20,000 nt of DNA, from IMG/VR virus record IMGVR_UViG_3300045180_000051, one strand, 5' to 3'. Of the stretch, positions 3-20,000 are shown piece by piece; positions within the stretch are counted from its first letter, which is position 1, and the number at the start of each line of letters is the position of its first letter. The notes beneath the pieces are model-generated. The model made no database searches and was not told the origin of the DNA. It saw only the letters and a program-made list of their open reading frames with translations. Position numbers and translations under genes: made by a program. Source of the stretch: an uncultured virus (IMG/VR IMGVR_UViG_3300045180_000051). Taxonomy: Duplodnaviria > Heunggongvirae > Uroviricota > Caudoviricetes.

Positions 3-308
3 GGCGGATACACTGTTCAGCTAACAGGTGTTGTTCCGGGTTTGCAGTTGATGGACGGTGATATGTTCTCACTGAAGAGCGGTGATTACCGTCAGTTCTT
101 GCAGGTGGCATATGGTGGCGGCGCAACAGCTGTCAGCACGACGATCACTGTTAAGGTGGATCAGCCGATTGCGTCTTATATCGCAACCGGCGCAACGGCT
201 CGTTTCAAGCAGCCAGAAATGAATGCCCGACTTGTGAGAGACAGCTTTCAGATGTCGAAAGGTCCGCGCCCGACTGCATCTTTCCAGCTGATCGAGGTGC
301 CGAAGTGA
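3..308 (+). CDS. Phage tail protein, 3' part (5'-truncated by window edge; possibly distal tail protein)
   Basis: The frame of ORF 42..308 is open back to position 3 (GGYTVQLTGVVPGLQLMDGD...). It lies directly before the tail-tip genes. Confidence 0.6.
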   Translation, partial: GGYTVQLTGVVPGLQLMDGDMFSLKSGDYRQFLQVAYGGGATAVSTTITVKVDQPIASYIATGATARFKQPEMNARLVRDSFQMSKGPRPTASFQLIEVPK

Positions 309-1180: not shown

Positions 1181-1573
1181 ATGCGACATCCGGAATGGGA
1201 AAAACGCCTCGTGGCCGTCACGGAGGCGCACATAAACACGCCTCTGGTCTGGGGAAAGTCTGATTGTCTTCTCACCACATCCGACGCGATTGAAGCGGTT
1301 ACGGGCATCGATCCTGCATCTGAAGTGCGAGGCAAATACAAAAGCCGCGCAGGTGCCTATCGCCTAATTAAACAGCGGGGTTTTTCCAGCTTAAGCGCCG
1401 TTCTGGCTGATCATTTCGAGGAAACGCCTGTTGCGATGGCGCAGCGGGGTGACGTTGGTATTTTTGAGAAAACTGTTGGCTACTTCTGTGAATACGGCTT
1501 CGCGGTGAAAGGCGAGGACGGTTTGCGCTTCCTGCCACGCACAATGGCCGAGAGGGCCTTCAAGGTTTCCTGA
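1181..1573 (+). CDS. Tail-assembly protein, NlpC/P60-like (DUF6950-like)
   Basis: 130 aa with 'WGKSDC' and 'AQRGDVG' motifs; overlaps the next start codon (TGATG). Confidence 0.7.
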   Translation: MRHPEWEKRLVAVTEAHINTPLVWGKSDCLLTTSDAIEAVTGIDPASEVRGKYKSRAGAYRLIKQRGFSSLSAVLADHFEETPVAMAQRGDVGIFEKTVGYFCEYGFAVKGEDGLRFLPRTMAERAFKVS

Positions 1574-4194
1574 TGTTTTACATTCTGGCGATTTTATTCG
1601 CGCTGTTGGCAACACCAGCGGCGGCGGACCCTGTTTCTATTGTGACAGGTCTTGTTGGCCTTGGCTCGTGGCTGTTCGGCGGTACTGTCCTTGCAAACAT
1701 TGTGCTTGGCGGACTTCTGGTCGCCGCAAAATACGCGCTCACGTCAATCTTTCAGCAGACGCCCAAGTCTTCGGCATCTGCCACAGAAACCAAATATGGT
1801 GAAAATCTCGTCCGTGAAGTCGGCCTCGGCGTATTTGGCACAATGGGGCATCACGTCTATCGCAATGCATTCGGTAAGGGCAACCGAATGGTGCAGGACG
1901 TGTTCAAGCTTTCCGACTTCCGCTGTGTTGAGCTTTTGCGCGTGCAGATGGATGGCGAGTGGAAGAGCCTTAGTCCAACCGATCAAACCTATGGACGTAA
2001 ACTTCTTAACGTCCACGAAGGTGGCGAAGTCTGGGTTCGCTTCTATCAGGGAACGATGCAGCAAGCTGCCGACCCTCAGCTAATTGCGAATTCTAATCCT
2101 TCGGGACGTTGGACTTCTGCGCATCGTGGGGCAGGTATCTGCTACGTCGTGGTTACGTCCCGCATGGAGGCCGATAATCTGACTTCGCCGCCGAGCCTTA
2201 TGTTCGAGGTTCGTGGCGCTCCATTGTATGACCCGCGAAAAGACAGCACGGTTGGTGGATCAGGAACTCAGCGCAGAAACAATCAGGATAGCTGGGCTTT
2301 CTCCGATAATCCTGCTGTCATGATGTATAATCTTGAACTAGGCATCTACAACGGCACGGAAAAGATCGTTGGTCGAGGCGTTGCGCAGAGCCGTTTGCCT
2401 TTGTCTGAATGGTTCACCGCGATGAATATCTGCGATGAAGCCATGTCAGACGGTAGCAAGCGCTATACGGCAGCATTGATTGCTTCATCTGGCGACGGGG
2501 TTACGCACGAAACCAATATGACGCCACTGCGCGAAGCTTGTGCAGGATCTTGGATTGAAGGCGTGACAGGTGAGTATCCAATCGTCGGCGCTAATCAGGC
2601 AGTCGTTGCGACGATCACTGATGACGATATCGCTTGGGAGAAGTCTTTCCAGCTGTCGTTAACGCGCACCCGGACTGATCTGGTCAACACTGTTGCGGCT
2701 TCTTATGTCAGCCCAGACTTGTTTTATGAAACCACGTCGCTCACCACGCGCGTTGATGCAGCTGCATTGGCTCAGGATCGCGAGCGACTGGCTTCCAAGG
2801 TGGATTACACTGCCGTCACTGATCCGCGAGTAGGCGACCGTCTGGCAGATATCGCGATCCGGGCCTCACGCTATCAGGCGAACGGCAACTTTACCGTGCA
2901 TCCGAAGTTCCTTGGACTGCAGGTTGGCCAGTGGGTTCAATGGGTATCAGCTCGCTATAACCGCACGATCAAGTTTCAGGTTCATTCGAAAGCCCTTGGC
3001 GCAATGGGCAGCGACAGTGTTCGCGATGTTTCAATCTCGTGGCAGGAGGTTGGCGACGGTATCTTTGATCCGACAGCTTATGCAACAAATCCGCCTGTTC
3101 CAACGCCGAATGGCGATCCGGATTATCTTGCTGAGGTCCAAAACTTCAACGCCGTCGCTAACAAGGTAATTGGCGCTGATGGTCAAGAGCATCCCGGCAT
3201 TCGGTTGTTCTGGGATGCGATTGACGACATCACTGTCGAAGGTGTTGACATCCAGTATTGGCCCGACAATGACCCGTCACAGGTATTCTCGTCGTTCGTG
3301 ACCAAAGATGTAACCGTCTTTCAGATCGTGAATGGTCTGACGAGCATCACTGATTGGTGGGTTAGAACAAGGCTTAGGGTGGCTTCGGGCACTCGTCCTG
3401 TGGCTTGGTCTGCTGCAGTCAAGGTGGCAACTCTCGACGCTCGACGCGAGGACAGCCCTGTCGATTTTCCGCGACTGGATGACGATGTCAAAGGCCTCGT
3501 TAACTACATGACAGATGACTTGCGTGAGTTCAAAAGGCAGGCGCAGGAAAACGCAACAACGTCGGCAAGTGGACTATTGGATGCGTATTCTAATGTCCAG
3601 ACAATCAGACGTGAGCTTACGAACACGTTTGGAACGGCTAAAGCATCATGGCAGGAAGATATCTTAACTGCCACAGGCCCAAACAGCGCCATTGGGCAGC
3701 AACTAACGCAGATCAATGTAAGCCTTGGCACGAAGGCCGATGCAAGCACTGTTGTACTTCTTCAGAGCCGAGTTGATGGCGTCCAAGGCGATATGACTGC
3801 CATTTCCAATGCGCTGACTGAGGTCAATGCGTCGGTCAACGATATCAACGCGAATGGATCTCTGCGCTTTACGGCCACGTCGGGGAGCGGCGGGGCTTCA
3901 AGTAGAATTGCTGCGTTAGCACGGGTTGGGATCGGTGACAGTTGGAAGCAAGCCGGTTGGTTCGTAAATGTTACTCAAACTTCGAGCCAGTTTGTTGTCA
4001 TTGCCAATCAGTTCGCCATCGCAGATCCGAATACTGACGGCAGCTTCACGTATCCGTTTGTTGTCGAGAATGGACGTGTCGTGATGGAAAATATCGTTGT
4101 AGGGACCGTGAAGTTTAAACGGCTTCAGTCCGATAACAACAAATTCGACGCACGCGGCGATGGAAACAATGCGTATCTGAGGATTATCGTTTAA
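1573..4194 (+). CDS. Tail tip / host-specificity protein (lambda gpJ-like central fibre)
   Basis: 873 aa; motifs 'HRGAGICY', 'VRGAPLYDPR' and 'SDNPA'; FnIII-like middle region, coiled-coil region and a gpJ-like C-terminus (ANQFAIAD..PFVVENG). Confidence 0.85.
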   Translation: MFYILAILFALLATPAAADPVSIVTGLVGLGSWLFGGTVLANIVLGGLLVAAKYALTSIFQQTPKSSASATETKYGENLVREVGLGVFGTMGHHVYRNAFGKGNRMVQDVFKLSDFRCVELLRVQMDGEWKSLSPTDQTYGRKLLNVHEGGEVWVRFYQGTMQQAADPQLIANSNPSGRWTSAHRGAGICYVVVTSRMEADNLTSPPSLMFEVRGAPLYDPRKDSTVGGSGTQRRNNQDSWAFSDNPAVMMYNLELGIYNGTEKIVGRGVAQSRLPLSEWFTAMNICDEAMSDGSKRYTAALIASSGDGVTHETNMTPLREACAGSWIEGVTGEYPIVGANQAVVATITDDDIAWEKSFQLSLTRTRTDLVNTVAASYVSPDLFYETTSLTTRVDAAALAQDRERLASKVDYTAVTDPRVGDRLADIAIRASRYQANGNFTVHPKFLGLQVGQWVQWVSARYNRTIKFQVHSKALGAMGSDSVRDVSISWQEVGDGIFDPTAYATNPPVPTPNGDPDYLAEVQNFNAVANKVIGADGQEHPGIRLFWDAIDDITVEGVDIQYWPDNDPSQVFSSFVTKDVTVFQIVNGLTSITDWWVRTRLRVASGTRPVAWSAAVKVATLDARREDSPVDFPRLDDDVKGLVNYMTDDLREFKRQAQENATTSASGLLDAYSNVQTIRRELTNTFGTAKASWQEDILTATGPNSAIGQQLTQINVSLGTKADASTVVLLQSRVDGVQGDMTAISNALTEVNASVNDINANGSLRFTATSGSGGASSRIAALARVGIGDSWKQAGWFVNVTQTSSQFVVIANQFAIADPNTDGSFTYPFVVENGRVVMENIVVGTVKFKRLQSDNNKFDARGDGNNAYLRIIV

Positions 4195-6943: not shown

Positions 6944-7425
6944 TGTCCGTAACGCAGCAGGTTCCAGACTTGTCAGGTCTGGGAAAAAAAGGTCTGCCGA
7001 TGCATTACCAAGCGTTCGGTATCGAACCGCCTATGAAGACCGTTCCGGTTGAAGATGGCGAACCTGTCACCGACAACCCCGGCATGACGATACCAGAGTA
7101 CGTAGCGGCAAAGCGCTGGGAGGCAGAGGTCGGTGGAATTGAGGTTGATGGATTGCTCATAGCTACCGACGATCGCTCAAAGATGATGATCTCAGGCGCT
7201 CGCGTTGCTGCACAGGGAAATCCAGAATTTTCCACTCAATGGAAAACGGCGACGGGAGAGTTTCTTATGGTCGACGCTGCAACAATCATCGCAGTTAGCG
7301 ATGCTGTTCTCGATCATGTCGCCCAGTGCTTTGCTGTTGAAGCTTCAATCACAGCAGATATTAAAACGGGCGTCGATTTCACGTTCGCGGATATTGATGA
7401 AATCTTTGCTCGCCATTTTCCCTAA
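6943..7425 (+). CDS. Tail fibre assembly protein (DUF4376-like)
   Basis: 160 aa with 'AAKRWEAEVGGI..TDDRS..WK..G.F..HVAQCFAVE' pattern; follows the fibre gene. Confidence 0.8.
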   Translation: MSVTQQVPDLSGLGKKGLPMHYQAFGIEPPMKTVPVEDGEPVTDNPGMTIPEYVAAKRWEAEVGGIEVDGLLIATDDRSKMMISGARVAAQGNPEFSTQWKTATGEFLMVDAATIIAVSDAVLDHVAQCFAVEASITADIKTGVDFTFADIDEIFARHFP

Positions 7426-7437
7426 CTGACAGACCGC

Positions 7438-7457
7438 ACCGCCCTTGAGGCGGTTTT
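7438..7457 (+). terminator. Rho-independent terminator of the tail operon
   Basis: ACCGCC-CTTGA-GGCGGT followed by TTT, just after the stop codon at 7425. Confidence 0.7.
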
Positions 7458-7555
7458 CACACCCTGCGCCATATCCAAAAGCAGAGAGCAAGAGCAAGTA
7501 GCGCTATAATCGCCAGCAGCGCGATGTTGTCTTCCATAACGTCAATCAGAAACAT
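7457..7555 (-). CDS. Small hydrophobic single-TM peptide (32 aa)
   Basis: Hand translation: MFLIDVMEDNIALLAIIALLALALCFWIWRRV. RBS GGAGGGG just upstream and a TATACT -10-like hexamer at 7579-7584. Confidence 0.65.
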   Translation of the reverse strand: MFLIDVMEDNIALLAIIALLALALCFWIWRRV

Positions 7556-7597
7556 TTGCCCCTCCACTTATCGCGCTAAGTATAACGGGCAATTGTG

Positions 7598-7672
7598 AAA
7601 GAAAAACCCCAGACACCGGCGGGGGGGCTGGGGTTGCACCGCCTCTATAGCCCCCGCAAGGCGAGTGCAACC
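7598..7672 (-). ncRNA. Putative sRNA unit 1
   Basis: Stems AACCCCAG(7605-12)/CTGGGGTT(7628-35) and TGCAC-CGCCT/AGGCG-A-GTGCA (7635-7669). A-tract at 7598-7606 gives a U-tail on the minus strand. Confidence 0.6.
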
Positions 7673-7727
7673 GTCCTTTACCATAAGGTAAAATATTAAC
7701 AGTCCCTACTTTGTGATTAGATCTCAC

Positions 7728-7799
7728 AAAAAAACCCCGATCTGCTTGGGGGCTGTACCGGGGTCTGCGCTTTGTTGCCTTTGGGGTGCAACATTGCGC
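7728..7799 (-). ncRNA. Putative sRNA unit 2
   Basis: Stems ACCCCG(7734-39)/CGGGGT(7759-64), extended by a G:U pair only on the minus strand, and GCGC-tt-TGTTGC/GCAACA-tt-GCGC (7767-7799). A7 tract. Confidence 0.6.
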
Positions 7800-7825
7800 C
7801 TGTTCATCATTTCAGAATGTGGCGG

Positions 7826-7911
7826 AAAAGAAAAGCCCCGGCATGTGGAATGAAGGATAGCACGAGCCGGGGCTTGCGCATCAACGGGCATGCAGTTGTC
7901 TCAGCGCGCAA
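7826..7911 (-). ncRNA. Putative sRNA unit 3
   Basis: Stems AAGCCCCGGC(7833-42)/GCCGGGGCTT(7866-75) and TTGCGC(7874-79)/GCGCAA(7906-11). Upstream on the minus strand, TG-C-TATTGA resembles an extended -10. Confidence 0.6.
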
Positions 7912-7933
7912 TCTCAATAGCAAAAAATGCAAG

Positions 7934-8009
7934 AAATAAAACCCCGGCAGGATCGCACAACCATGCCGGGGTTGCGTTCAAAAGCAATTATCAGGACCCG
8001 TTGAACGCA
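7934..8009 (-). ncRNA. Putative sRNA unit 4
   Basis: Perfect stems AACCCCGGCA(7940-49)/TGCCGGGGTT(7964-73) and TGCGTTCAA(7973-81)/TTGAACGCA(8001-09). Upstream on the minus strand, TG-C-TAATTT resembles an extended -10. Confidence 0.65.
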
Positions 8010-8034
8010 GCCTCTAAATTAGCAACGGCTATAC

Positions 8035-8150
8035 AAAAAGAAAAGCCCCAGAGGCGCTTGAAATCTCTGGGGCCTGACCCGGCAGGCGGGCAGCCATGAA
8101 CCGGGGTTACTCACGTTACATTCAAGCGGGGGCTGTGATGCCGTGAATAA
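8035..8150 (-). ncRNA. Putative sRNA unit 5 (three hairpins)
   Basis: Stems GCCCCAGAG/CTCTGGGGC (8045-73), CCCGG/CCGGG (8078-8105) and TTACTCACG/CGTGAATAA (8107-50; G:U on the minus strand). Candidate promoter TTGACG-N16-TAATTC at 8183-8156. Confidence 0.65.
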
Positions 8151-8155
8151 GCAAC

Positions 8156-8184
8156 GAATTAGCGCCCATGTTTTCAACGTCAAG
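8156..8184 (-). promoter_or_regulatory. Sigma70-like promoter for unit 5
   Basis: CTTGACG-N16-TAATTC on the minus strand, close to the alphaproteobacterial CTTGAC-N17-CTATAT consensus. Confidence 0.5.
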
Positions 8185-8189
8185 GGCGG

Positions 8190-8274
8190 AAAAATAAAAC
8201 CCCAGCTCGTGGGTAATCATTCCGAGCTGGGGCTTATCACTGGTGCAACACGAGCAACTGCTTCGATACAGTGA
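8190..8274 (-). ncRNA. Putative sRNA unit 6
   Basis: Stems CCCCAGCTCG(8200-09)/CGAGCTGGGG(8223-32) and TCACTG(8237-42)/CAGTGA(8269-74). Candidate promoter TTGCCT-N16-TAGTTT at 8310-8283. Confidence 0.6.
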
Positions 8275-8318
8275 ATGGTTAGAAACTAGGGCGGAAAAAT
8301 GATGAGGCAAGATCAGAT

Positions 8319-8392
8319 AAAAACCCCGGCCAGCGGGGGCTGAACCGGGGCCGCGCACCGGGATTGAAGCTGAGGAGCTCGGGACGGCGCGC
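8319..8392 (-). ncRNA. Putative sRNA unit 7
   Basis: Minus strand reads GCGCGCCG..CGGUGCGC (with G:U), then GGCCCCGGU-U-CAGC-CCCC-GCUG-GCCGGGGUUUUU. Upstream TG-T-GAGAAT resembles an extended -10. Confidence 0.6.
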
Positions 8393-8433
8393 AGGCAAAT
8401 ATTCTCACAACCTTATGAAAAGGCAATGCTTCG

Positions 8434-9099
8434 CTAGAACTTGTAAGCAATGCCGAGTGTAGCGGTATGTTGGCTTAGACGGCGAGCCCAATCCCTAACA
8501 AGATCTTGTTTGCCGAAGTCGTTGTAACGATATGCAACGCGACCGATGATGTTTTGTGTGATTGCCCAATCCGCTCCAGCGCCAATGTTCCAGCCATTTC
8601 TGTCTATATCTGACTTGGCGTATGAAGAAAGATAACCCGGAGTGACGGCATCGCTCATTAGGCTAAACCAGCCCCGTGAGTATCCAGCAGTGATGTAGGG
8701 CAGATACTGTCCGAAGGCGTAGCCAAGGCGTCCATTGACCGACGCTGTCGCTTTTGACCGAAATCTCTCTTGGAAATAAGCATCGTCACTTGCGGTGTTT
8801 AACACCCAAGGAAGTTTGTCAGCTTTGAATTCGCCGCCTGTGAATTCTACGGAAACTTCTGGACCGAATACCCACTGGCCATGTTGGAAATTGTATCCGA
8901 CATAGCCGCCACCTGTGACGTTAGCGCCGTCCGCACTGTAATATTGGTTCCAAATATCAAACGGTGTGTCTGTCTTCGCTTTAGACCATCTCGCACCGAT
9001 GCTCACGCCCCCATAGATGCCGGACCAGTCAAATGTCTCGGCAACAGCGGTGTTCGTCCACGCGGCAGCGACAACGGTAACAATAAGTAAATGCTTCAC
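8434..9099 (-). CDS. Outer-membrane beta-barrel protein, Omp25/Omp31/RopB family
   Basis: 221 aa; GTG start with GGGGAG RBS; signal peptide; motifs 'FDWSGIYGG', 'GGYVGYNFQ', 'GRLGYAFG..LPYITAG' and 'GWNIGAGADWA'; C-terminal YKF BamA signal. Confidence 0.9.
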   Translation of the reverse strand: MKHLLIVTVVAAAWTNTAVAETFDWSGIYGGVSIGARWSKAKTDTPFDIWNQYYSADGANVTGGGYVGYNFQHGQWVFGPEVSVEFTGGEFKADKLPWVLNTASDDAYFQERFRSKATASVNGRLGYAFGQYLPYITAGYSRGWFSLMSDAVTPGYLSSYAKSDIDRNGWNIGAGADWAITQNIIGRVAYRYNDFGKQDLVRDWARRLSQHTATLGIAYKF

Positions 9100-9177
9100 A
9101 GAAATCTCCCCAAGCCTGCCCAGCGCGGAGAGTATGACGAGAATTTCAAATCTGCAACTCTAAGAAAGTAAATCGAA

Positions 9178-9258
9178 AAGGCTGCCGTCACTAAAGCGAT
9201 ACCGCATGTCTTCACGGATGAAGGCGACTACGTTTACAACCCGAAAGACCCGGGCGGC
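9178..9258 (+). pseudogene. Remnant N-terminus of a GH108-family lysozyme
   Basis: The frame from 9181 reads AAVTKAIPHVFTDEGDYVYNPKDPGG, matching the GH108 EGGY(V/S)xxPxDPGG motif. There is no start codon (TAA at 9169-71), and similarity ends after DPGG. Confidence 0.7.
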
Positions 9259-9302
9259 GTAGTGCCCGGCTGCACAATCTTCTTTTTTGTCTTAGCGAAA
9301 AA

Positions 9303-9662
9303 TTATTCGCACTGATACCGGGCCTCATACTGCGGCTCGAAGACAAGAGAAATGTCGTTAACCCGACAGGTGCGGCCCTTTGATGCTAGGAATGCTTCTG
9401 CCGCATCACGGTAGACCACTTCGGCGTTCATTGGATTGTAGGCTCCGAACGTTGCTCCTTTAACAACTCCACCTCCAAAGGAAGCGCCTAAGGTGGGAGT
9501 TATCATTAAGCGGTTTTCAGTCGGCTTATCGTAAATCCGATATCCAGTGCCTGATGGCGCTGTATACGACACCGGCTTAACGCTCGAATAGTGCTGCATA
9601 GCATAGTTCGCACCTGCGCATCCCGTCAGCGCTAGCAGCGCCACAATTCCCAAACGTTTCAT
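9303..9662 (-). CDS. Lipoprotein moron (119 aa)
   Basis: Likely start MKRLGIVALLALTGC (lipobox LTG-C) at 9662 with GAGGGCGGGA upstream. The longer ORF-track start overlaps the endolysin gene. Confidence 0.75.
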   Translation of the reverse strand: MKRLGIVALLALTGCAGANYAMQHYSSVKPVSYTAPSGTGYRIYDKPTENRLMITPTLGASFGGGVVKGATFGAYNPMNAEVVYRDAAEAFLASKGRTCRVNDISLVFEPQYEARYQCE

Positions 9663-9703: not shown

Positions 9704-10567
9704 ATGAACAAAACAACGTTCTTCGCGTATGCGAGGCGCGCGCCTTTTGGCGGCCGTTTGAGCCAGGCTCAGGTTGATGGCACATCGGCTATCTTGGCCG
9801 AAGCCGAGCGCCGCAATTTACCCGACGAGCAGACCGCCTATATCCTTGCGACTGTCTTTCATGAGACTGGCGGCAAGATGCAGCCGGTCATCGAGAATCT
9901 GAACTACACCAGTGCGGCGCAAATTCGGAAGACATGGCCAAAGCGCTTTTCGTCAATCGCATCGGCCCAGCCATATGTTCGCCAGCCTCAAAAGCTCGCT
10001 AATAAGGTCTATGGCGGCCGCATGGGTAACGACAGCGTTAATGACGGCTGGACTTATCGCGGGCGAGGCCTGCCTCAGATTACAGGCGAGGACAACTACA
10101 AGAAGTTCGGTATTGCCGATGCGCCAGAGAAGGCGCTGGAGTTAGCCACGGCAATCCGTATCCTCTTTGAAGGCATGGTGCTGGGCAAGTTCACTGGGCG
10201 CAAGCTGAGTGACTTTTTCGGCAAGGGCAAAACAGATCCTGAAGGCGCGCGTGTCATCGTCAACGGCACCGACAAGGCCACGCTGATCTCCGGCTATTAT
10301 CGCAACTTCCTAGACAGCCTGATTGCTGCGCGGGAAATGAAGGCCGCTGCTCCTGATGACGCCAAGCCTGACGACGTGCCTTTGCTCAAGGATAAGACGG
10401 TGCAGACCATCGTCGCAGCTGGTGGCGGTACGTTCTTGACTGGCCTTATCAGCGCCGTGTCGAACCCGTGGGCATTCTTGACAGTCGCACTAGTGCTCGT
10501 CGCCATCGGTGGCGGTTTCTGGCTCTGGCATACAGACAGGCTCGAACTGAAGAGGGTGGCGGCGTGA
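9704..10567 (+). CDS. Endolysin, glycoside hydrolase family 19 (chitinase-like), with C-terminal hydrophobic segments
   Basis: GH19 motifs 'YILATVFHETG', 'ENLNY', 'ANKVYGGRMGN', 'YRGRGLPQITG' and 'VNG'; AGGA RBS. Confidence 0.9.
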   Translation: MNKTTFFAYARRAPFGGRLSQAQVDGTSAILAEAERRNLPDEQTAYILATVFHETGGKMQPVIENLNYTSAAQIRKTWPKRFSSIASAQPYVRQPQKLANKVYGGRMGNDSVNDGWTYRGRGLPQITGEDNYKKFGIADAPEKALELATAIRILFEGMVLGKFTGRKLSDFFGKGKTDPEGARVIVNGTDKATLISGYYRNFLDSLIAAREMKAAAPDDAKPDDVPLLKDKTVQTIVAAGGGTFLTGLISAVSNPWAFLTVALVLVAIGGGFWLWHTDRLELKRVAA

Positions 10568-10746
10568 GGATCGTAATTGATTACGATGCTGATGCGCAGA
10601 CTGCTGAAGTCGCGATTGGCGAAAAGGTCCAGTGTTGGACCGGTGTGCACCTAACGCTCGCGCAAGGCATCACCGAAACTCGCGATGGGTATCTGATCCG
10701 CCGCGAATGCGACGGTTCGAAGTCCTTGCTTCTTACAGGAGAGTAA
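10564..10746 (+). CDS. Hypothetical phage protein (60 aa)
   Basis: GTGA overlap with the endolysin stop; MRIVIDYDADAQTAEVAIG...; abuts the next gene. Confidence 0.55.
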   Translation: MRIVIDYDADAQTAEVAIGEKVQCWTGVHLTLAQGITETRDGYLIRRECDGSKSLLLTGE

Positions 10747-10748
10747 GC

Positions 10749-10985
10749 ATGACCTTCCTCCTAGCACTTCGCTCCAAGTTGACAGGCTACGCCGTTGCTC
10801 TGAGCGCGGCGTTGGCCGTCCTTGTCAGCGCGTACCTCAAAGGCCGGTCCGACAGCAAAACAGCTCAGGCCGCGCGCGAAGCACAATCGGCAACCAAAGC
10901 ACGGAAGATAGAAAATGAAGTCAGCCGTCTTGATGACAGCGCTGTTGACGCTCGGCTTGCTAAGTGGATGCGCGACAAGCGGTAA
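10749..10985 (+). CDS. Inner-membrane spanin (Rz-like)
   Basis: AGGAG RBS and ATG at 10749; N-terminal TM followed by a helical periplasmic domain; overlapped by a lipoprotein gene. Confidence 0.65.
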   Translation: MTFLLALRSKLTGYAVALSAALAVLVSAYLKGRSDSKTAQAAREAQSATKARKIENEVSRLDDSAVDARLAKWMRDKR

Positions 10986-11100: not shown

Positions 11101-11102
11101 GG

Positions 11103-11285
11103 TCAGTTGCCCAAAGGCTCAGTCACTCCCGGGGTTTGCTCTTTCGGCATGAACGCCCGTCTCTCTTCGTATTTCACGATGAAGACTATAGCTGCCAGTG
11201 CAACAATCACCGGCACCGCGATGCATAAAACCCGCAGAACCGCACCGAAGATTTCTCCAATCAAACTGTTCGATACCTGTCTCAT
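11103..11285 (-). CDS. Small membrane protein (60 aa), moron
   Basis: Long hydrophobic segment (IFGAVLRVLCIAVPVIVALAAIVFIV); fills the gap between two + strand genes. Confidence 0.5.
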   Translation of the reverse strand: MRQVSNSLIGEIFGAVLRVLCIAVPVIVALAAIVFIVKYEERRAFMPKEQTPGVTEPLGN

Positions 11286-11364
11286 GCCGCAATCATATCA
11301 GCAAAGACCTTAAGCGAACACAAAGGGGCACATTAACTATGTTTAATCTAAAGAGAAACGAAGC

Positions 11365-11700
11365 ATGACCGGACCTGAAATCATGGGCGTTGTCGGCTTC
11401 ATCGTGATGCTCTTTGGCTTTTTGTTTGGCCTTTGGAAGTACGTCGACAGCAAGATCAACGCTGCGAGAAATGAAACGGCCGCCAAAGCCGAAGCAGCCA
11501 CAGCGCTCGCCGCACTGACGCGGCAGGAGCTGTCAGACTATAAGCTACGTGCGGCTGAGACCTTCGCCACAAAGGCCGGGATGCAGGAACAGACCTCGCA
11601 GATCATGCGCGCCATTGAAAGCGTCGCAAACCGCATCGACGGACTCACCGAGCGCATGGATCGTGTGTTTGAGCAGAAGACAACGCGGGCTAGGGGGTGA
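11365..11700 (+). CDS. Phage membrane protein with one TM and a coiled coil (possibly holin or antiholin related)
   Basis: N-terminal TM (VVGFIVMLFGFLFGLW) followed by heptad-like helices; adjacent to the lysis genes. Confidence 0.6.
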   Translation: MTGPEIMGVVGFIVMLFGFLFGLWKYVDSKINAARNETAAKAEAATALAALTRQELSDYKLRAAETFATKAGMQEQTSQIMRAIESVANRIDGLTERMDRVFEQKTTRARG

Positions 11701-11705
11701 GCGAT

Positions 11706-12470
11706 TCAGTTGGGCGCGGTAAAACGACGGAAGGATGGCGTCACATGATCTTCGCGATCCTTCTCAAGCATTCGCAACATGTTTTCACCGTACCCTGGCA
11801 CCGCATAAACACTTATCGTTCTAATATTGTTCTTCCCCAGTCCAGTCTTTAGGTAGTGCTCACTAACAGCTGTCGGACGTGGAGGACGTGGCGACAGTAT
11901 TTCAATAAAGCAGCCTCCGAACATAAACGTAAGGTTTACGCCATTCTTGTTTCGGAGGATGCGTGGCGAAAGCATTATCTTTGCTAAATTGACGTCATTG
12001 CCGTGAATATGATCAAATAATCGGCTTATTCTCACGGCATAATGAGCCAATGACTTGTGTGAATTATCCGAAAAAAGAGATTTGATTTGATCCTCGTGAT
12101 GACGGGATAATTTGAAATTCTGATAAAACTCAGCGTCACTTTTACTGGCTCGCCAAGCAACTGATAACATTGCACGAGAAATTGAACGAGCGTCGTTAGC
12201 ACATATAGTTCGTTGTCTATCTAATTTTTCAATAATTTGCTGCAGTGGTATATCAAAATTGACATTGAAATGGCTCTCACATTCAGCGCAGAGCATCGGG
12301 CAGTCACCGCTAGCTTGCGTTACGCTATTTGGAGAGTTGTCAGTTTTATATTTTACTGCCTGACCATTACTCTTTGCGGATCGAAAATAGCTGTTGGGAA
12401 TTGCATGTGATCTGGAGAGCTTTTTCTCTTGCTGGCAAAATGCGCAAACTCCGATTGTCGCCTTCGACAT
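11706..12470 (-). CDS. HNH-like Zn-binding putative nuclease (AT-rich moron)
   Basis: CAFC..SHAIP..LCAECESHFN pattern (CxxC/H/CxxC). Visibly lower GC than its neighbours and antisense to the flanking operons. Confidence 0.6.
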   Translation of the reverse strand: MSKATIGVCAFCQQEKKLSRSHAIPNSYFRSAKSNGQAVKYKTDNSPNSVTQASGDCPMLCAECESHFNVNFDIPLQQIIEKLDRQRTICANDARSISRAMLSVAWRASKSDAEFYQNFKLSRHHEDQIKSLFSDNSHKSLAHYAVRISRLFDHIHGNDVNLAKIMLSPRILRNKNGVNLTFMFGGCFIEILSPRPPRPTAVSEHYLKTGLGKNNIRTISVYAVPGYGENMLRMLEKDREDHVTPSFRRFTAPN

Positions 12471-12511
12471 GCAAATCCCCCCCCCCGAATCCTAAATTTC
12501 ACCCATCATAC

Positions 12512-12589: not shown

Positions 12590-12874
12590 ATGTCCGAACA
12601 GGCACAGGGCGCGGGTGCGCGCGTAAATACGGGTGGGCCTGCCCATCCATTCCTTACATGGCAAAATCCGCAAGGGTTCCGTATAGGCAGTCTTCATGAA
12701 GGTCTGACGATACGTGATCATTTTGCGGGGCAGGCGTTGCAAGGTCTTATTGGCGGATCGCACCATGAGATGGCGACCTTCGCAGAGACGAACAATACAA
12801 CAATCGTAAAGGTGGCCGCCTCGTTAGCTTACGCATACGCCGACGCCATGATCGTTGCCAGAGGTGCCGCGTGA
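12590..12874 (+). CDS. Conserved hypothetical phage protein
   Basis: 'GGPAHP..GLTIRDHFAGQALQGL..AYAYADAMI' is a common phage small-protein pattern; GAGGAG RBS. Confidence 0.75.
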   Translation: MSEQAQGAGARVNTGGPAHPFLTWQNPQGFRIGSLHEGLTIRDHFAGQALQGLIGGSHHEMATFAETNNTTIVKVAASLAYAYADAMIVARGAA

Positions 12875-13584
12875 GTAAGACTTTTGCAGTCGCCGACCTT
12901 CACGGACGATACGATCTATTGCTGGCCGCAATCGAACGCATCGAACAAAGCAGCCACTCTGGTGGCACCATTGTATTCATGGGCGATTACGTTGACCGTG
13001 GGCCGCAAAGCGCACAGGTCATTGAACGACTGATGCAAGGGCCGGATGACCCGAAACGCTGGAAATGGGTATGTTTGCAGGGAAATCATGAAGAGATCAT
13101 GTTGACCTGCCTTTTCGCCACTGGCCTCGCGGGCTCGTATTGGATGCCGAACGGTGGCGGCGCGACACTTCTGTCGTACGGAGCAAAGGAAGGCGGATCT
13201 ATATCCTCAGCGCTCACGCTTGTTCCACAGTCGCACATCGATTGGCTTAAAGCCCTGCCTATGATCCACTTGGATGAGCATCGTGTGTTCGTTCATGCCG
13301 GCGTTGACGAGACTATCCCGCTCGATAAGCAGACGAAACAGACCATGCAATGGATGCTGTATCCAGATGGATATGAAGGCGGGCATCGCGAAAGGCACGT
13401 TGTTCATGGCCATCATCAATTTGAAGATGGCCCGTTGCTATTTTCAGGACGCACTGACCTCGACACCTTCGCTTGGTATACCGGCCGTCTAGTGGTCGGC
13501 GTGTTCGACGACAGTAAGCCCGGCGGCCCGGTCTCCACGATTGAGATCAAAGGCCCGTCAATACACGAGCTTCGAGGACAATAA
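12871..13584 (+). CDS. Ser/Thr protein phosphatase, lambda NinI/PPP-type metallophosphoesterase
   Basis: Motifs DLHG, GDYVDRG, GNHE, VHAG, HGH and DT. Confidence 0.9.
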   Translation: MSKTFAVADLHGRYDLLLAAIERIEQSSHSGGTIVFMGDYVDRGPQSAQVIERLMQGPDDPKRWKWVCLQGNHEEIMLTCLFATGLAGSYWMPNGGGATLLSYGAKEGGSISSALTLVPQSHIDWLKALPMIHLDEHRVFVHAGVDETIPLDKQTKQTMQWMLYPDGYEGGHRERHVVHGHHQFEDGPLLFSGRTDLDTFAWYTGRLVVGVFDDSKPGGPVSTIEIKGPSIHELRGQ

Positions 13585-17152: not shown

Positions 17153-17830
17153 TCAAAACAGACTAGTTTGTTCTTCCTTATTGTCATTGCTTGGCGTCAG
17201 GTCGAGCAAGGCCTCATCCGGCAATGGCTTCTGCATTACCTTCGCTTCATCCCATGGCGCACGCAACCACGCGTCAATCTCCTCGGTCGTGCGGAGAATT
17301 ACCGGCATTGCCTTCGGGTGAACTGGCTTTACCACAGCGTTGGGCTCGGTAGTCAGGAAAGCAAAGATATCGACCTCGACGGGGCCTTCTTTCTTCTTCC
17401 TTACACCTTTCCATGTCGTCCAGATGCCAGCAAAGGCAAAGAGCGGCTTTTCTTCGTTTAGAGCGAACCAGTGCAACGGCTTACGTTTCGTCTTTGGATC
17501 TGGCTCTTGTCCATATTCGGAAAATGATGTGGCTGGCACAACGCAGCGGCTTTCAACGCCTTGCCAGCGTCGCCAATGAGGGGAGGTGAGGTTACGAATG
17601 TTTGTTACGCCGCTGTCAGCTTCGCCCTTCACGTACATAGGCGGCGTCGGCATTCCCCACCGAAGATGTGCAAGCTCGTGCTCACCATCTGCCATGTTGC
17701 GCAGGACCGGGGCTGGGTAGTCTGGATAGACATCTAACTGCGGATCAACACGGTTCGTTATATCGCCGAATTTTGGAAACAGACGGCGCATGGCTTCATG
17801 TGTCGTAGTGAGGTTGTAAAGATTGCACAT
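17153..17830 (-). CDS. SRAP/HMCES (YedK-like) abasic-site processing protein
   Basis: N-terminal MCNLY (catalytic Cys2), 'LRWG', 'TNIRN', 'RCVVPATSFSE', 'FAFAGIW' and 'HPKAMPVIL'; AGGAGG RBS. Confidence 0.92.
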   Translation of the reverse strand: MCNLYNLTTTHEAMRRLFPKFGDITNRVDPQLDVYPDYPAPVLRNMADGEHELAHLRWGMPTPPMYVKGEADSGVTNIRNLTSPHWRRWQGVESRCVVPATSFSEYGQEPDPKTKRKPLHWFALNEEKPLFAFAGIWTTWKGVRKKKEGPVEVDIFAFLTTEPNAVVKPVHPKAMPVILRTTEEIDAWLRAPWDEAKVMQKPLPDEALLDLTPSNDNKEEQTSLF

Positions 17831-18857: not shown

Positions 18858-20000
18858 TTGGCTAAAATTAAGAAGCGTTCGTGGGAAAACGCGAGCGGAA
18901 AACACGAAGCGTGGCAGTTAGATTTCACTGACAGGCATGGGAAGCGTCATCGAGAACAGTATGCAAAGAAACGCGAAGCCGAAGCCCGTCTTTCTGACCT
19001 TGTGAGTGCGACAGGTGCCGCGACATACAAAGAAGCAGCTCAAAAGACGACCGTAGCTGACGTATGCGTTGATTACTATGAGGAGATGGAGAAGCGCAAC
19101 AAACGTGGTGAAAGCGTTGTTCAGTCGTATCTCCGCACCACAAAACAGCACATCGATAATTGGATTGATCCAAAAGAGGAAAGCGCTGTCGGCTTCACCA
19201 AAGGAATCGGAACCAAAACACTGTCGGAACTGACGACGGCGGACGTGATAAAGCTTAGGAATGAAATGCGCGATGCTTCAGCCGGAGTTGTCACGACACG
19301 GCGTGTTCTCGGAACGCTGAGTCGTATTCTGAAACATGGCGTTGAGACGGATAAGGTGGGCGTCAATGTCGCAAAAGGTGTTCGAGTTATTGGCAAGCGC
19401 GATGAGGCTGGAGATAAGGTAACACCACCTTCAAAGGTTGATCTCGCTGAGATCCTTAAGAAGGCTGATGACAAATTAGCGCTACGAATCAGGTTCGCTG
19501 CTTCATCAGGCCTGCGAGCTTCTGAGCAATGGGCGCTACGTTGGGTGCATCTCGATCTGAAAAATGGCTTCGTCTCAGTCGAAACGCGCGTGGATGCGTA
19601 CGGTGAATTCGACACGACGAAATCATCTGCTGGTCGTCGCACTGTCCCAATCGGGAAGGCGATGCTTGAGCAGTTAAAATCTTGGAAAGGTGAAACGAAG
19701 CACAGCGCGCCTGACGACTTCGTTTTCACTGACAGCAAGGGCGGCTTTGTACGCCACACCAACTTTATGAAGCGCGATTGGAAACCCACAATTAAGCGCG
19801 CAGAAGTTGAAGATATCGGCTGGCACGCTCTTCGACACTTCGCTATTTCGACTTGGATTGAGGCTGGCCTTACACCCAAAGCTGTGCAGACATTGGCCGG
19901 TCATGCGAGCTATGCCATTACGATGAATCGCTATGGCCATCTCTTCCCCTCAGACGATCATAAAGCCGCGTTCGACAGGATTGCGGAAACACTCGCATGA
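18858..20000 (+). CDS. int: Phage tyrosine integrase
   Basis: 380 aa with a TTG start; arm-binding-like N-terminus; catalytic R (GLRASE), K (TTKS), HxxR (HALRH), H (AGH) and Y (RYGH); stop codon at 19998-20000. Confidence 0.93.
   Translation: MAKIKKRSWENASGKHEAWQLDFTDRHGKRHREQYAKKREAEARLSDLVSATGAATYKEAAQKTTVADVCVDYYEEMEKRNKRGESVVQSYLRTTKQHIDNWIDPKEESAVGFTKGIGTKTLSELTTADVIKLRNEMRDASAGVVTTRRVLGTLSRILKHGVETDKVGVNVAKGVRVIGKRDEAGDKVTPPSKVDLAEILKKADDKLALRIRFAASSGLRASEQWALRWVHLDLKNGFVSVETRVDAYGEFDTTKSSAGRRTVPIGKAMLEQLKSWKGETKHSAPDDFVFTDSKGGFVRHTNFMKRDWKPTIKRAEVEDIGWHALRHFAISTWIEAGLTPKAVQTLAGHASYAITMNRYGHLFPSDDHKAAFDRIAETLA

What the first reader, a model, noticed from the sequence alone, without database searches (positions are those of the whole stretch)
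7613..8384. Array loops are antisense to Shine-Dalgarno / start-codon-like sequences
Seen in sequence: read on the + strand (the target sense), many loops look like translation initiation regions. Examples are CAAGCGGGGGCTGTGATGCC (unit 5), CAGGCGGGCAGCCATGAAC (unit 5), CAGGATCGCACAACCATGCC (unit 4), AACGGGCATGCAG and GAAGGATAG (unit 3), TGAGGAGCTC (unit 7) and TTGGGGTGCAAC (unit 2). GGGGGCTG recurs at 7623-30, 7748-55, 8128-35 and 8335-42, and AGCGGGGGCTG occurs twice. Known: anti-SD loop seeds are how AbcR1/2 (alpha-r15) sRNAs repress translation. Inference: each loop blocks ribosome loading on a specific mRNA. Accessory genes in this window use G-run RBSs (GGGGAG before the Omp gene, G10 before the HNH-like gene), so the targets could be horizontally acquired defence genes (RNA-based counter-defence) or genes of competing phages.
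Basis: partly seen in the sequence, partly recalled or inferred. Interest (0 to 1): 0.85.

Follow-up and report, generated by a model that had tools for sequence, protein, structure and literature searches.

The report
Prophage array of small-RNA gene cassettes
Between the tail and lysis genes of a temperate phage of the Brucella/Ochrobactrum group lie seven back-to-back cassettes that look like separate small-RNA genes, and only some of their loops resemble ribosome-binding-site blockers.

Summary
The quoted strings are all present, and GGGGGCTG does recur 4 times (0.53 expected, 0 of 200 shuffles). The "SD plus start codon" look of the + strand is not above chance: 17 sites against 14.9 in dinucleotide shuffles.

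The stretch is a minus-strand array of seven units of 100-155 nt, at about 7598-8412. Each unit has a -10-like box, a 5' stem-loop, a 2-4 nt linker and an intrinsic terminator with an unusually large loop. The units share only the terminator arm and T-run. The array lies in an accessory island with an Omp beta-barrel gene, between the tail-fibre and lysis genes.

Related Brucella/Ochrobactrum-group prophages carry arrays of up to 10-11 units in the same slot, built from shuffled, conserved unit types. One type shows compensatory changes in its 5' stem. No Rfam family matches.

Exposed positions are C-rich (C 32%, G 14%). Even so, only 67 of 133 related units expose a C/CU-rich 4-mer, and 29 expose an SD-like one. 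Only 3 of 20 exposed window segments prefer host start regions over shuffles.

Verdict: probably a new tandem array of phage small-RNA genes. Anti-SD action is plausible for a subset. Targets are unknown and expression is unproven.

The parts
7598..8412 (-). Whole array: seven tandem cassettes (U7 to U1 in the direction of transcription), each 100-155 nt.
   Evidence: Seven same-strand terminator hairpins spaced 100-155 nt. The only shared sequence is the boundary module AAAGAAAAGCCCCRG as read on the + strand. No tandem repeat by TRF, no tRNA, no Rfam family.
8317..8407 (-). U7 (type A). Box TGAGAATAT at 8407-8399. SL1 at 8392-8353 with a C-rich loop holding CUCCUC. Terminator at 8350-8324 with an apical C5. 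T-run at 8323-8319. Starts 27 nt after the Omp stop codon, so it may instead be the omp 3' UTR.
   Evidence: Fold. Homologues in L009, L219, L220 and, more distantly, L020/L025/L059/L060.
8190..8316 (-). U6 (type F). SL1 at 8274-8237. Terminator at 8232-8200 (10-bp stem, 13-nt loop). T-run to 8190.
   Evidence: Six-member SL1 cluster (cluster 3).
8035..8189 (-). U5 (type F, three hairpins). CTTGAC at 8184-8179, a 16-nt spacer, then CTAATT at 8162-8157. SL1 at 8150-8107 with an apical C5. Middle hairpin at 8106-8078. Terminator at 8073-8045.
   Evidence: The same promoter-like pair stands before homologous units in L002, L009 and L043. The unit is a recombinant of two separate L002 units.
7934..8034 (-). 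U4 (type B). Box GCTAAT at 8023-8018. SL1 at 8009-7973. Terminator at 7971-7942.
   Evidence: An identical 39-nt stretch occurs in two viral contigs. Five-member SL1 cluster whose members carry different terminator loops (cluster 7).
7826..7933 (-). U3 (type E). Box GCTATT at 7921-7916. SL1 at about 7909-7876. Terminator at 7873-7835 (8-bp stem, 23-nt loop with an exposed UCCU).
   Evidence: Homologue in L025 with a different terminator (cluster 8).
7726..7825 (-). U2. SL1 at 7799-7767 with an exposed ACCCCAAAG loop. Terminator at 7763-7735 with an apical C5.
   Evidence: The exposed segment 7787-7778 prefers host start regions (z -5.3, 0 of 25 shuffles). Only weak homologues elsewhere.
7598..7725 (-). 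U1. SL1 at 7670-7634, whose loop holds GCGGGGGCU, the complement of the AGCCCCCGC found in U7 and U5. Terminator at 7633-7607 with a C7 run.
   Evidence: Homologues in several genus genomes.
7457..7555 (-). Small hydrophobic ORF of 32 aa, with SD GGAGGGG. It is preceded by the same kind of -10-like box (TATACT) about 21 nt after the U1 T-run. It looks like the last cassette of the island, but it is protein-coding.
   Evidence: The same peptide family with the same SD sits beside arrays in L007, L043, L214 and L221.
7439..7457 (+). Short hairpin plus four T just after the last tail gene (stop at 7425). Possibly the end of the late operon, converging on the array.
   Evidence: Read. Not reported by the terminator scan, which needs five T.
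8434..9099 (-). Omp beta-barrel accessory gene upstream of the array on the same strand, with SD GGGGAG.
   Evidence: Pfam OMP_b-brl, E 7.8e-15. Start region. Absent from the relative L002, whose array is longer.
12468..12486 (-). G10 run 6 nt upstream of the ATG of the 254-aa gene (12470-11706). A candidate target of the C-run loops.
   Evidence: U1 against this start region gives duplex E -54.2 v -38.7 +/- 4.4 in shuffles (0 of 100). No homologue of the gene in the other loci, so conservation could not be tested.

Best explanation
The region is a tandem array of seven small-RNA gene cassettes on the minus strand. It sits in an accessory ('moron') island inserted between the tail-fibre and lysis genes of a temperate phage of the Brucella/Ochrobactrum group.

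Each cassette has a -10-like box, a 5' stem-loop (SL1), a 2-4 nt linker and a Rho-independent terminator with an 11-23 nt loop. The predicted RNAs are about 65-115 nt. The 3' arm and T-run of each terminator form a boundary module shared by all cassettes. That module lies where the -35 region of the next cassette's promoter would be, so the cassettes stack head to tail. They can also be swapped by recombination between related prophages.

Inferred, not shown: the RNAs are made in lysogens from host-type promoters and act in trans by base pairing through their apical loops. A subset with C- or CU-rich tips could occlude G-rich ribosome-binding sites, including the G-run sites of this phage's own accessory genes. 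Other cassettes carry different conserved seeds with unknown targets.
For: (1) Anatomy. There are seven same-strand GC hairpins with T-runs at 100-155 nt spacing. Each is preceded by a second predicted hairpin.

(2) The terminators are not the ordinary host kind. In 400 kb of a related host chromosome only 5 of 185 terminator-like hairpins have a (G)CCCC stem, with loops of 5-9 nt. The window has 7 in 750 nt, with loops of 11-23 nt.

(3) Conservation and mosaicism. Chains of three or more such hairpins lie on the opposite strand 2-6 kb downstream of the J-like tail gene. They occur in 13 of 40 viral loci and 3 of 13 genome loci found with that protein. This is a floor, because the finder needs perfect stems and some loci end early. 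Across the loci I chose for clustering there are 133 unique units in 71 SL1 clusters. The same SL1 is joined to different terminators, and the reverse.

(4) Structure is selected. In type D SL1, 91.8% of cells pair, against at most 44.7% when partners are slid. There are 17 double-change cells against 7.8 +/- 2.5 in shuffles (0 of 500). Smaller numbers of compensatory pairs occur in two other types.

(5) Promoter-like signal. TANNNT starts exactly 22-23 nt after the T-run start in 23 of 74 spacers. It is present at +15..32 in 53% of spacers against 31 +/- 5% in shuffles (0 of 500). Four 'long' units have CTTGAC plus a CTAATT-like box.

(6) Unpaired positions are C-rich and G-poor: C 32.4%, G 14.4%.

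(7) The array is accessory. The closest named phage (Sinorhizobium phage HMSP1-Susan, 43% identity in the tail protein) has its fibre gene abutting the lysin gene, with no array.
Against: No transcript evidence. The four RNA-library runs laid on the window are contigs that cover all 20 kb evenly, so they say nothing about expression, ends or strand.

The E. coli-type sigma-70 scan found no promoter inside the array. It found 1 site in 7000-9400, inside omp, against 2.0 expected.

U7 could simply be the omp 3' UTR and terminator.

Covariation is clear for only one unit type, which is not present in the window. Type A (U7) has an almost invariant stem (that alignment also held one wrongly placed row).

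No target was identified for any cassette.

Homologues of U2 are weak.
Confidence: 0.55

Rival explanations
1. Every loop is an anti-Shine-Dalgarno/anti-start seed, each blocking ribosome loading on one specific mRNA, with defence genes or competing phages as the likely targets.
For: C/CU-rich apical tips occur in 6 of 7 window units. Three exposed segments prefer host start regions beyond shuffles: U7 8377-8370, U5 8101-8094 and U2 7787-7778. G-run SD regions occur in 3 minus-strand accessory genes of the window, against 31 of 347 host start regions. U1 pairs with the G10 start region at z -3.5.
Against: The SD-plus-start look is at chance. 17 of 20 exposed segments and 13 of 15 whole loops show no start-region preference over shuffles. 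29 of 133 related units expose SD-like rather than anti-SD-like 4-mers, and 42 expose neither. Conserved SL1 loops of types B, C and D are not C-rich. None of the 8 accessory proteins tested hits a defence family. No competing-phage target was found.
Confidence: 0.12
2. No RNA function. The array is a stack of terminators that insulates the tail operon from leftward accessory-gene transcription, plus scars of lost accessory genes. The shared boundary module is only a recombination hot spot.
For: Every unit ends in a strong terminator. The array converges on the end of the late operon. Units come and go between relatives. No expression data exist. The generic promoter scan found nothing in the array.
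Against: One terminator would be enough. SL1 hairpins upstream of the terminators are conserved across phages with compensatory changes. Loop sequences of 16-24 nt are conserved while stems vary. A -10-like box sits at a fixed distance. Terminator loops are far larger than in host terminators.
Confidence: 0.15
3. The RNAs are antitoxin or immunity RNAs. They would control the small hydrophobic peptides encoded beside the arrays (type I toxin-antitoxin-like), or act as sRNA/anti-sRNA pairs within the array.
For: Small single-helix peptides of 27-40 aa with basic C-termini flank arrays in many loci, often with a GGAGGGG SD. The window's peptide gene uses the same spacer/box layout as the cassettes. 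Complementary loops occur within arrays: the U1 SL1 loop against the U7 and U5 tips, and a 7-nt loop pair in adjacent L025 units.
Against: There is no extended complementarity between any window unit and the peptide's 5' region. The best is U2, z -2.5, with 3 of 100 shuffles as low. No overlapping antisense arrangement exists. Toxicity of the peptides is untested. The 9-nt loop match is within what chance could give among 15 GC-rich loops (my estimate, not computed).
Confidence: 0.08
4. The RNAs are protein-binding decoys. The array would titrate an RNA chaperone or another RNA-binding protein that recognises terminator hairpins or C-rich tips.
For: Many hairpins share a common 3' module (hairpin plus U-tail), and AGC-CCCC-GCU caps recur on otherwise unrelated scaffolds.
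Against: No partner protein gene is evident in the island. The SL1 loops are diverse, and each is conserved as its own type, which points to many different partners rather than one.
Confidence: 0.07

Closest known systems
Prophage-encoded trans-acting sRNAs of lambdoid E. coli phages (AsxR/AgvB anti-sRNAs, PMC4104026; svsR, PMC12803456; review PMC12197685). I saw only the search listings and the starts of the abstracts.
   Same: Small non-coding RNAs carried in accessory regions of temperate phages, thought to act on host or rival-phage RNAs during lysogeny.
   Different: As far as I saw, those are single genes or scattered loci. Here 7-11 unlike cassettes are packed head to tail with a shared boundary module. 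The host clade is different and there is no sequence or Rfam relation.
Cuckoo RNA family (CcsR/RSs0680, alpha-r14/SmelC397) of Rhizobiales and Rhodobacterales (PMC4615179; passages read).
   Same: An alphaproteobacterial host range that includes Brucellaceae. Modules of adjacent hairpins with variable stems, C-rich anti-SD-like loops, and clusters of up to 9 copies.
   Different: The family is defined by CCUCCUCCC in every hairpin loop. The array has no such motif: the only hit inside it needs 2 mismatches, and window-wide hits are at chance (43 v 42.4 expected). No Rfam match. The units here are unlike one another.
Their properties are recalled, not read here.
   Same: A tandem arrangement of sRNA genes in Rhizobiales, and use of exposed C-rich motifs against ribosome-binding sites.
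   Different: No covariance-model match at gathering score or at E<=10. Seven heterologous units rather than two paralogues. Located in a prophage.
NsiR1 tandem sRNA array of heterocystous cyanobacteria (architecture recalled).
   Same: Repeated promoter / roughly 60-nt RNA / terminator units in direct succession.
   Different: NsiR1 units are near-identical copies. Here only the terminator end is shared. The two Rfam hits to NsiR1 are far below threshold (18.0 and 15.6 bits against 39) and rest on the terminator.
Morons of lambdoid phages, meaning promoter-gene-terminator cassettes added between essential modules (concept recalled).
   Same: Position between the tail and lysis modules, opposite strand, own promoter and terminator, presence or absence varying between relatives.
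   Different: The cargo of each cassette is a structured RNA of under 120 nt rather than a protein gene, and the cassettes are chained with overlapping terminator and promoter signals.
C-rich-loop sRNAs of Firmicutes (LhrC1-5, RsaE/RoxS, RNAIII). RNAIII's UCCC loops are mentioned in PMC4615179; the rest is recalled.
   Same: Apical C-runs presented on hairpins, a design that pairs with G-rich SD sequences.
   Different: Unrelated hosts and sequences. This is only a functional analogy, and it applies to a subset of the units.

Membership tests
AbcR1/2 (alpha-r15, Rfam) | Match to the family covariance model | tested here: not met
   No Rfam family at gathering score in the window or in 8 related loci. 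Not among the 8 weak matches at E<=10 in 7300-8600.
Cuckoo / CcsR / alpha-r14 | CCUCCUCCC in each hairpin loop of 2-4 adjacent hairpins (PMC4615179) | tested here: not met
   Pattern search with up to 2 mismatches gives 43 hits in 20 kb against 42.4 expected. Only one lies in the array (8081-8089, 2 mismatches).
Cuckoo / CcsR / alpha-r14 | Match to Rfam models of the family | tested here: not met
   none.
Rho-independent terminators | GC-rich hairpin followed directly by a T-run | tested here: met
   Seven on the minus strand. Two of them are also found by the stricter tool scan, whose loop limit is 8 nt.
Independent sRNA genes (promoter + structured RNA + terminator) | Own promoter | tested here: inconclusive
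   A -10-like TANNNT lies at a fixed +22/23 from the T-run in 23 of 74 spacers (0 of 500 shuffles reach the observed fraction). CTTGAC plus a box stands before U5. The E. coli-consensus scan finds none.
Independent sRNA genes (promoter + structured RNA + terminator) | Conserved secondary structure with compensatory changes | tested here: met
   Met for type D. Weaker for cluster 2 and type C. Not shown for the window's own U7 type.
Independent sRNA genes (promoter + structured RNA + terminator) | Discrete transcripts | not testable with these tools
   The only runs found are kept as contigs and cover the whole window evenly.
Type III toxin-antitoxin (ToxI-like) or CRISPR-like repeat arrays | Near-identical short direct repeats in tandem | tested here: not met
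   TRF reports no array in 7600-8400. The direct repeats are limited to the 15-16 nt boundary module.
Type I toxin-antitoxin | Antisense RNA with extended complementarity to the mRNA of a small toxic peptide | tested here: inconclusive
   A small hydrophobic ORF is adjacent. No unit stands out against its 5' region: best z -2.5 among 7 units. Toxicity is untested.

The most novel reading that the evidence does not exclude
Temperate phages of the Brucella/Ochrobactrum group carry a modular, recombining 'small-RNA cassette array'. Up to about eleven different regulatory RNAs are chained so that each terminator doubles as the upstream element of the next promoter, and they are exchanged between prophages through a shared boundary module. 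The array would be a portable toolkit for post-transcriptional control. Some cassettes would be anti-SD RNAs for G-run ribosome-binding sites, some their SD-like counterparts, and others would have distinct seeds. The toolkit would reprogram the lysogen or exclude rival phages.
Probability: 0.35. Interest if true: 0.75.

Novelty: new variant of a known kind. Interest (0 to 1): 0.6.

Why it matters
Phage-encoded small RNAs are known mostly as single genes in enterobacterial phages. Here 7-11 unlike RNA cassettes are chained and shuffled among prophages of a soil, insect and animal-associated alphaproteobacterial clade. That would show that accessory 'moron' slots can accumulate whole sets of riboregulators, and it would suggest a mechanism for how they spread (a shared terminator/promoter boundary). 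It would also supply a set of natural hairpin scaffolds with exchangeable loops for studying how seeds are presented. If the C-tip cassettes do control G-run ribosome-binding sites of the phage's own accessory genes, that would be a compact self-contained regulatory circuit. None of this is shown yet, and expression is the first thing to test.

Tried and rejected
- RNA evidence. 22 RNA-library runs hold the stretch. The four I laid are contigs covering all 30 bins of the window at similar depth, so they allow no statement on expression, ends or strand.
- Own genome and relatives. These are not held for this virus record. A family-level DNA search found 0 of 201 genomes, but it scored few candidates per genome and is uninformative.
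- Known phages by DNA. No match to 7430-8433 in the phage collection.
- Extended targets of conserved loops. The 18-nt complement of the type D loop with up to 3 mismatches gives no more hits than the backwards control. The 0-1 mismatch hits are the RNA genes themselves.
- The 10-mer AGCGGGGGCT. It occurs 43 times in 5 genomes, against 31 for the control. One recurrent host hairpin between ABC-transporter genes carries it, but its loop varies freely across 17 genomes and the motif is mostly stem there. I rejected it as chance (no Rfam family).
- Whole-loop duplex scan of the window. It gave long, implausible duplexes and no start-region pattern, apart from the G10 site.
- A scan for complementary matches of 13 nt or more between conserved unit sequences and the phage loci. 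A first version was not run. The version that ran indexed both strands, so sense and antisense counts are equal by construction (746 each, against 268 for reversed units), and unmasked units dominate. It is uninformative, so whether phage genes carry extended target sites stays open.
- Pattern scan CGGTGCGC-N2-4-CCCCGG. It was too unspecific: at least 120 mostly unrelated contigs. Of 25 hits to the 16-nt type C pattern, 9 are true units and 16 are chance.
- Conservation of the U1/G10 pairing. There is no homologue of the 254-aa gene in the other loci.
- Previous notes of this scan. None.
- Literature. Four searches returned no paper describing such arrays in Brucella/Ochrobactrum phages. Subscription journals and supplements were not searched.
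Full report
What the window is. Pfam and PHROG scans show a temperate tailed phage or prophage. On the + strand are a J-like tail protein (1573-4194), further tail and tail-fibre genes up to 7425, an endolysin (9704-10567) and an Rz-like spanin (10632-10985). Downstream are replication and repair genes and an integrase at 18858 onward. Between the fibre and lysis genes lies a minus-strand island. It holds a 160-aa ORF (9785-9303), an Omp beta-barrel gene (9099-8434), about 1 kb without a credible ORF, and a 32-aa hydrophobic ORF (7555-7457). Relatives of the tail protein lie in prophages of Brucella (Ochrobactrum-type species), Falsochrobactrum, Ochrobactrum, Pseudochrobactrum, Daeguia and Phyllobacterium. 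The closest named phage is Sinorhizobium phage HMSP1-Susan, at 43% identity. There the fibre gene abuts the lysin gene with nothing in between.

Checking the observation. GGGGGCTG occurs four times, only in this stretch, against 0.53 expected; 0 of 200 shuffles reach four. The impression that the + strand 'looks like initiation regions' does not survive a control. SD-like core plus spacer plus start codon occurs 17 times, against 14.9 +/- 4.8 in dinucleotide shuffles. With a strict core it occurs 2 times against 2.7. The strand asymmetry (17 v 6) comes from base composition.

Anatomy. Read on the minus strand, the stretch holds seven GC hairpins, each followed by a T-run, spaced 100-155 nt apart. 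All stems begin (G)CCCC and the loops are 11-23 nt. In 400 kb of a related host chromosome only 5 of 185 terminator-like hairpins have such a stem, with loops of 5-9 nt. This is therefore not the host's ordinary terminator style. Upstream of each terminator a second hairpin (SL1) is predicted, separated by 2-4 nt. The units share only a 15-16 nt boundary module, the 3' arm plus T-run. TRF sees no tandem repeat. There is no tRNA and no Rfam family at gathering score or at E<=10.

Relatives. A near-identical copy (L003, 99.97%) and a diverged one (L002) were found with a 39-nt pattern. L002 lacks the Omp gene. By the terminator splits it carries about eleven units. Some are 97% identical to window units, some are rearranged (the window's U5 is a recombinant of two L002 units), and some are absent from the window. 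The tail protein served as an anchor for a wider look. Chains of three or more such terminators lie on the opposite strand 2-6 kb downstream of the J gene in 13 of 40 viral loci and 3 of 13 genome loci. This is a floor, because the finder needs perfect stems and several loci end early. L025 has ten. In the genus, 13 of 43 scored genomes hold matches to the window's array, some at several loci (13, 7 and 6 matches). Clustering the 62 nt upstream of 133 unique hairpins gives 71 SL1 clusters. The larger clusters are conserved unit types joined to different terminators. RNA-library contigs from mixed samples break inside the array and run on into alternative units (loose ends at 7444, 7938, 8078 and 8114). 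This fits cassette exchange within populations.

Are the units RNA genes? Three lines say probably.
- Structure. For type D (10 sequences) the SL1 helix is 91.8% paired, against at most 44.7% when partners are slid. It has 17 double-change cells against 7.8 +/- 2.5 in shuffles (0 of 500), while the 20-nt loop stays constant. Cluster 2 and type C show 3 and 2 compensatory pairs. Type A, the window's U7, has an almost invariant stem and gives no test. One row of that alignment was also misplaced by me.
- A -10-like box. In 74 spacers that begin at a preceding T-run, TANNNT starts at +22 or +23 in 23 of them. It lies within +15..32 in 53%, against 31 +/- 5% in shuffles (0 of 500). With a 17-nt spacer the -35 position falls on the T-run itself, whose fifth base is C in 54% of spacers. 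Four longer units instead carry CTTGAC and a CTAATT-like box. That CTTGAC resembles the alphaproteobacterial -35 consensus is my recollection, not a tool result.
- Loop sequences of 16-24 nt are conserved within types while stems vary.

Against this, the generic sigma-70 scan finds no promoter in the array and I have no transcript data. U7 begins 27 nt after the omp stop codon and may be its 3' UTR.

The anti-SD idea. Positions predicted unpaired are C-rich and G-poor. Hairpin loops have C 35.5% and G 15.4%. Positions with P(unpaired) >= 0.5 have C 32.4% and G 14.4%. The recurrent AGCCCCCGC is a small hairpin cap (AGC-CCCC-GCU) that presents a C4-5 tip with P(unpaired) 0.80 in U7, U5 and U2. 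U7 SL1 exposes CUCCUC, and U3 and U4 expose UCCU. The same cap sits on unrelated scaffolds in relatives (clusters 2, 4 and 11). It occurs 13 times on the array strand and twice on the other strand in about 900 kb of phage loci, against 3 times in 400 kb of host DNA counted on both strands.

So a subset of loops has the design of C-rich, SD-pairing RNAs. The generalisation fails, though. Of 133 related units, 67 expose a C/CU-rich 4-mer and 29 expose a G/GA-rich (SD-like) one. Taking one unit per cluster gives 35 and 20 of 71. Of 53 terminator loops, 17 are anti-SD-like and 6 SD-like.

I took 347 heuristically called genes from 400 kb of a genus genome that carries close relatives of the array. 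I then compared duplex energies with -30..+14 windows and with gene-interior windows. For whole loops, 2 of 15 prefer start regions by more than 2 sd of 8 shuffles. For exposed segments, 3 of 20 do, with 0 of 25 shuffles as low: U7 8377-8370, U5 8101-8094 (which contains the complement of AUG) and U2 7787-7778. The C5 tips themselves do not stand out (z -1.4 to -1.8). Caveats: the genome is a surrogate host, gene calls are crude and starts were partly chosen by SD, and the shuffles keep composition.

Possible own targets. In the window, GGGG within -22..-3 of a start codon occurs in 3 of 24 genes, all of them minus-strand accessory genes. They are the 32-aa peptide (GGAGGGG), omp (GGGGAG) and the 254-aa gene (G10). 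The host sample has 31 of 347. U1, with its C7 run, pairs with the G10 region far better than with shuffled versions: -54.2 against -38.7 +/- 4.4, 0 of 100, the one outlier among 28 unit-target pairs. This is low-complexity pairing and the gene has no homologue in the other loci, so it remains a lead only. None of the 8 accessory proteins tested matches a PADLOC family, so nothing here points to defence genes as targets.

Other readings. A pure terminator stack explains the hairpins. It does not explain the conserved, covarying SL1, the fixed box or the oversized conserved loops. A type I toxin-antitoxin reading is prompted by the small hydrophobic, C-terminally basic peptides that accompany arrays in many loci, but no unit shows extended complementarity to the window's peptide mRNA. 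Loops complementary to each other occur within arrays: U1 SL1 against the U7 and U5 tips, and a 7-nt pair in adjacent L025 units. This suggests RNA/anti-RNA pairs, but I could not show it exceeds chance. A protein-decoy role cannot be excluded.

Comparison with the known. The array works most like a chain of 'morons' whose cargo is a small RNA. Functionally it resembles prophage sRNAs of E. coli phages (listings and abstract starts only) and tandem sRNA arrays such as NsiR1 (recalled; sub-threshold Rfam hits). It is not a member of AbcR/alpha-r15 or of the cuckoo family, because the defining CCUCCUCCC loop motif is absent and no model matches. My four literature searches found no description of such arrays in this phage group. 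Subscription journals and supplements were not covered.

Verdict. The object is most likely a new variant of a known kind: a mosaic tandem array of phage small-RNA cassettes. Anti-SD action is plausible for some cassettes but unproven, and it is not the general rule. Targets are unknown.

Noticed in passing
window 7457-7555 (-); also L002, L007, L015, L017, L020, L025, L029, L042, L043, L208, L214, L221: Small hydrophobic ORFs of 27-53 aa with basic C-termini lie beside the arrays. The window's 32-aa family recurs in L007, L043, L214 and L221, always with a GGAGGGG SD. They could be small membrane proteins or type I toxin-like peptides. No Pfam family matches.
   Followed up: partly
window 12477-12486: An uninterrupted G10 run lies 6 nt upstream of the ATG of the 254-aa minus-strand gene. 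A homopolymer of this length could vary by slippage and change translation. It is also the best duplex partner of unit U1.
   Followed up: partly
window 7444, 7938, 8078, 8114: Contigs from RNA-library runs end or run on into other sequence at these places inside the array. One continuation matches a unit type seen in L002, so variant arrays coexist in the sampled populations.
   Followed up: no
window 11102-11365: One contig (run X3) replaces 262 nt between the spanin gene and the next ORF with 35 other letters. This is a strain-level replacement variant.
   Followed up: no
window 7644-7657 v 8333-8341 and 8126-8134; L025 adjacent units: Loops within one array are complementary to each other. 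The U1 SL1 loop (GCGGGGGCU) matches the AGCCCCCGC tips of U7 and U5. In L025 two neighbouring terminator loops share a perfect 7-nt complement (GACCUCC / GGAGGUC).
   Followed up: partly
L279/L284/L288 about 1480-1525 and 14 more genus genomes: A chromosomal hairpin lies between an ABC-transporter substrate-binding gene and its ATPase gene. It has a conserved stem and a freely varying loop, in some genomes AGCGGGGGCU. It is preceded by a GCTAAT box and followed by a T-run on the strand opposite to the operon. It could be an antisense small RNA or an intercistronic terminator.
   Followed up: partly
window 8434-9099 (-): The phage carries an Omp beta-barrel gene (Pfam OMP_b-brl) as an accessory gene next to the array. 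The relative L002 lacks it.
   Followed up: no
L020/L025/L059 (units of cluster 6 and cluster 10): The terminator that closes a protein gene upstream of some arrays reads as a terminator on both strands (A-run before, T-run after). It is conserved together with a type A unit that follows it.
   Followed up: no
window 17153-17830 (-), 12871-13584 (+): An SRAP (SOS-response associated peptidase) gene and a NinI-like phosphatase gene lie among the early genes.
   Followed up: no
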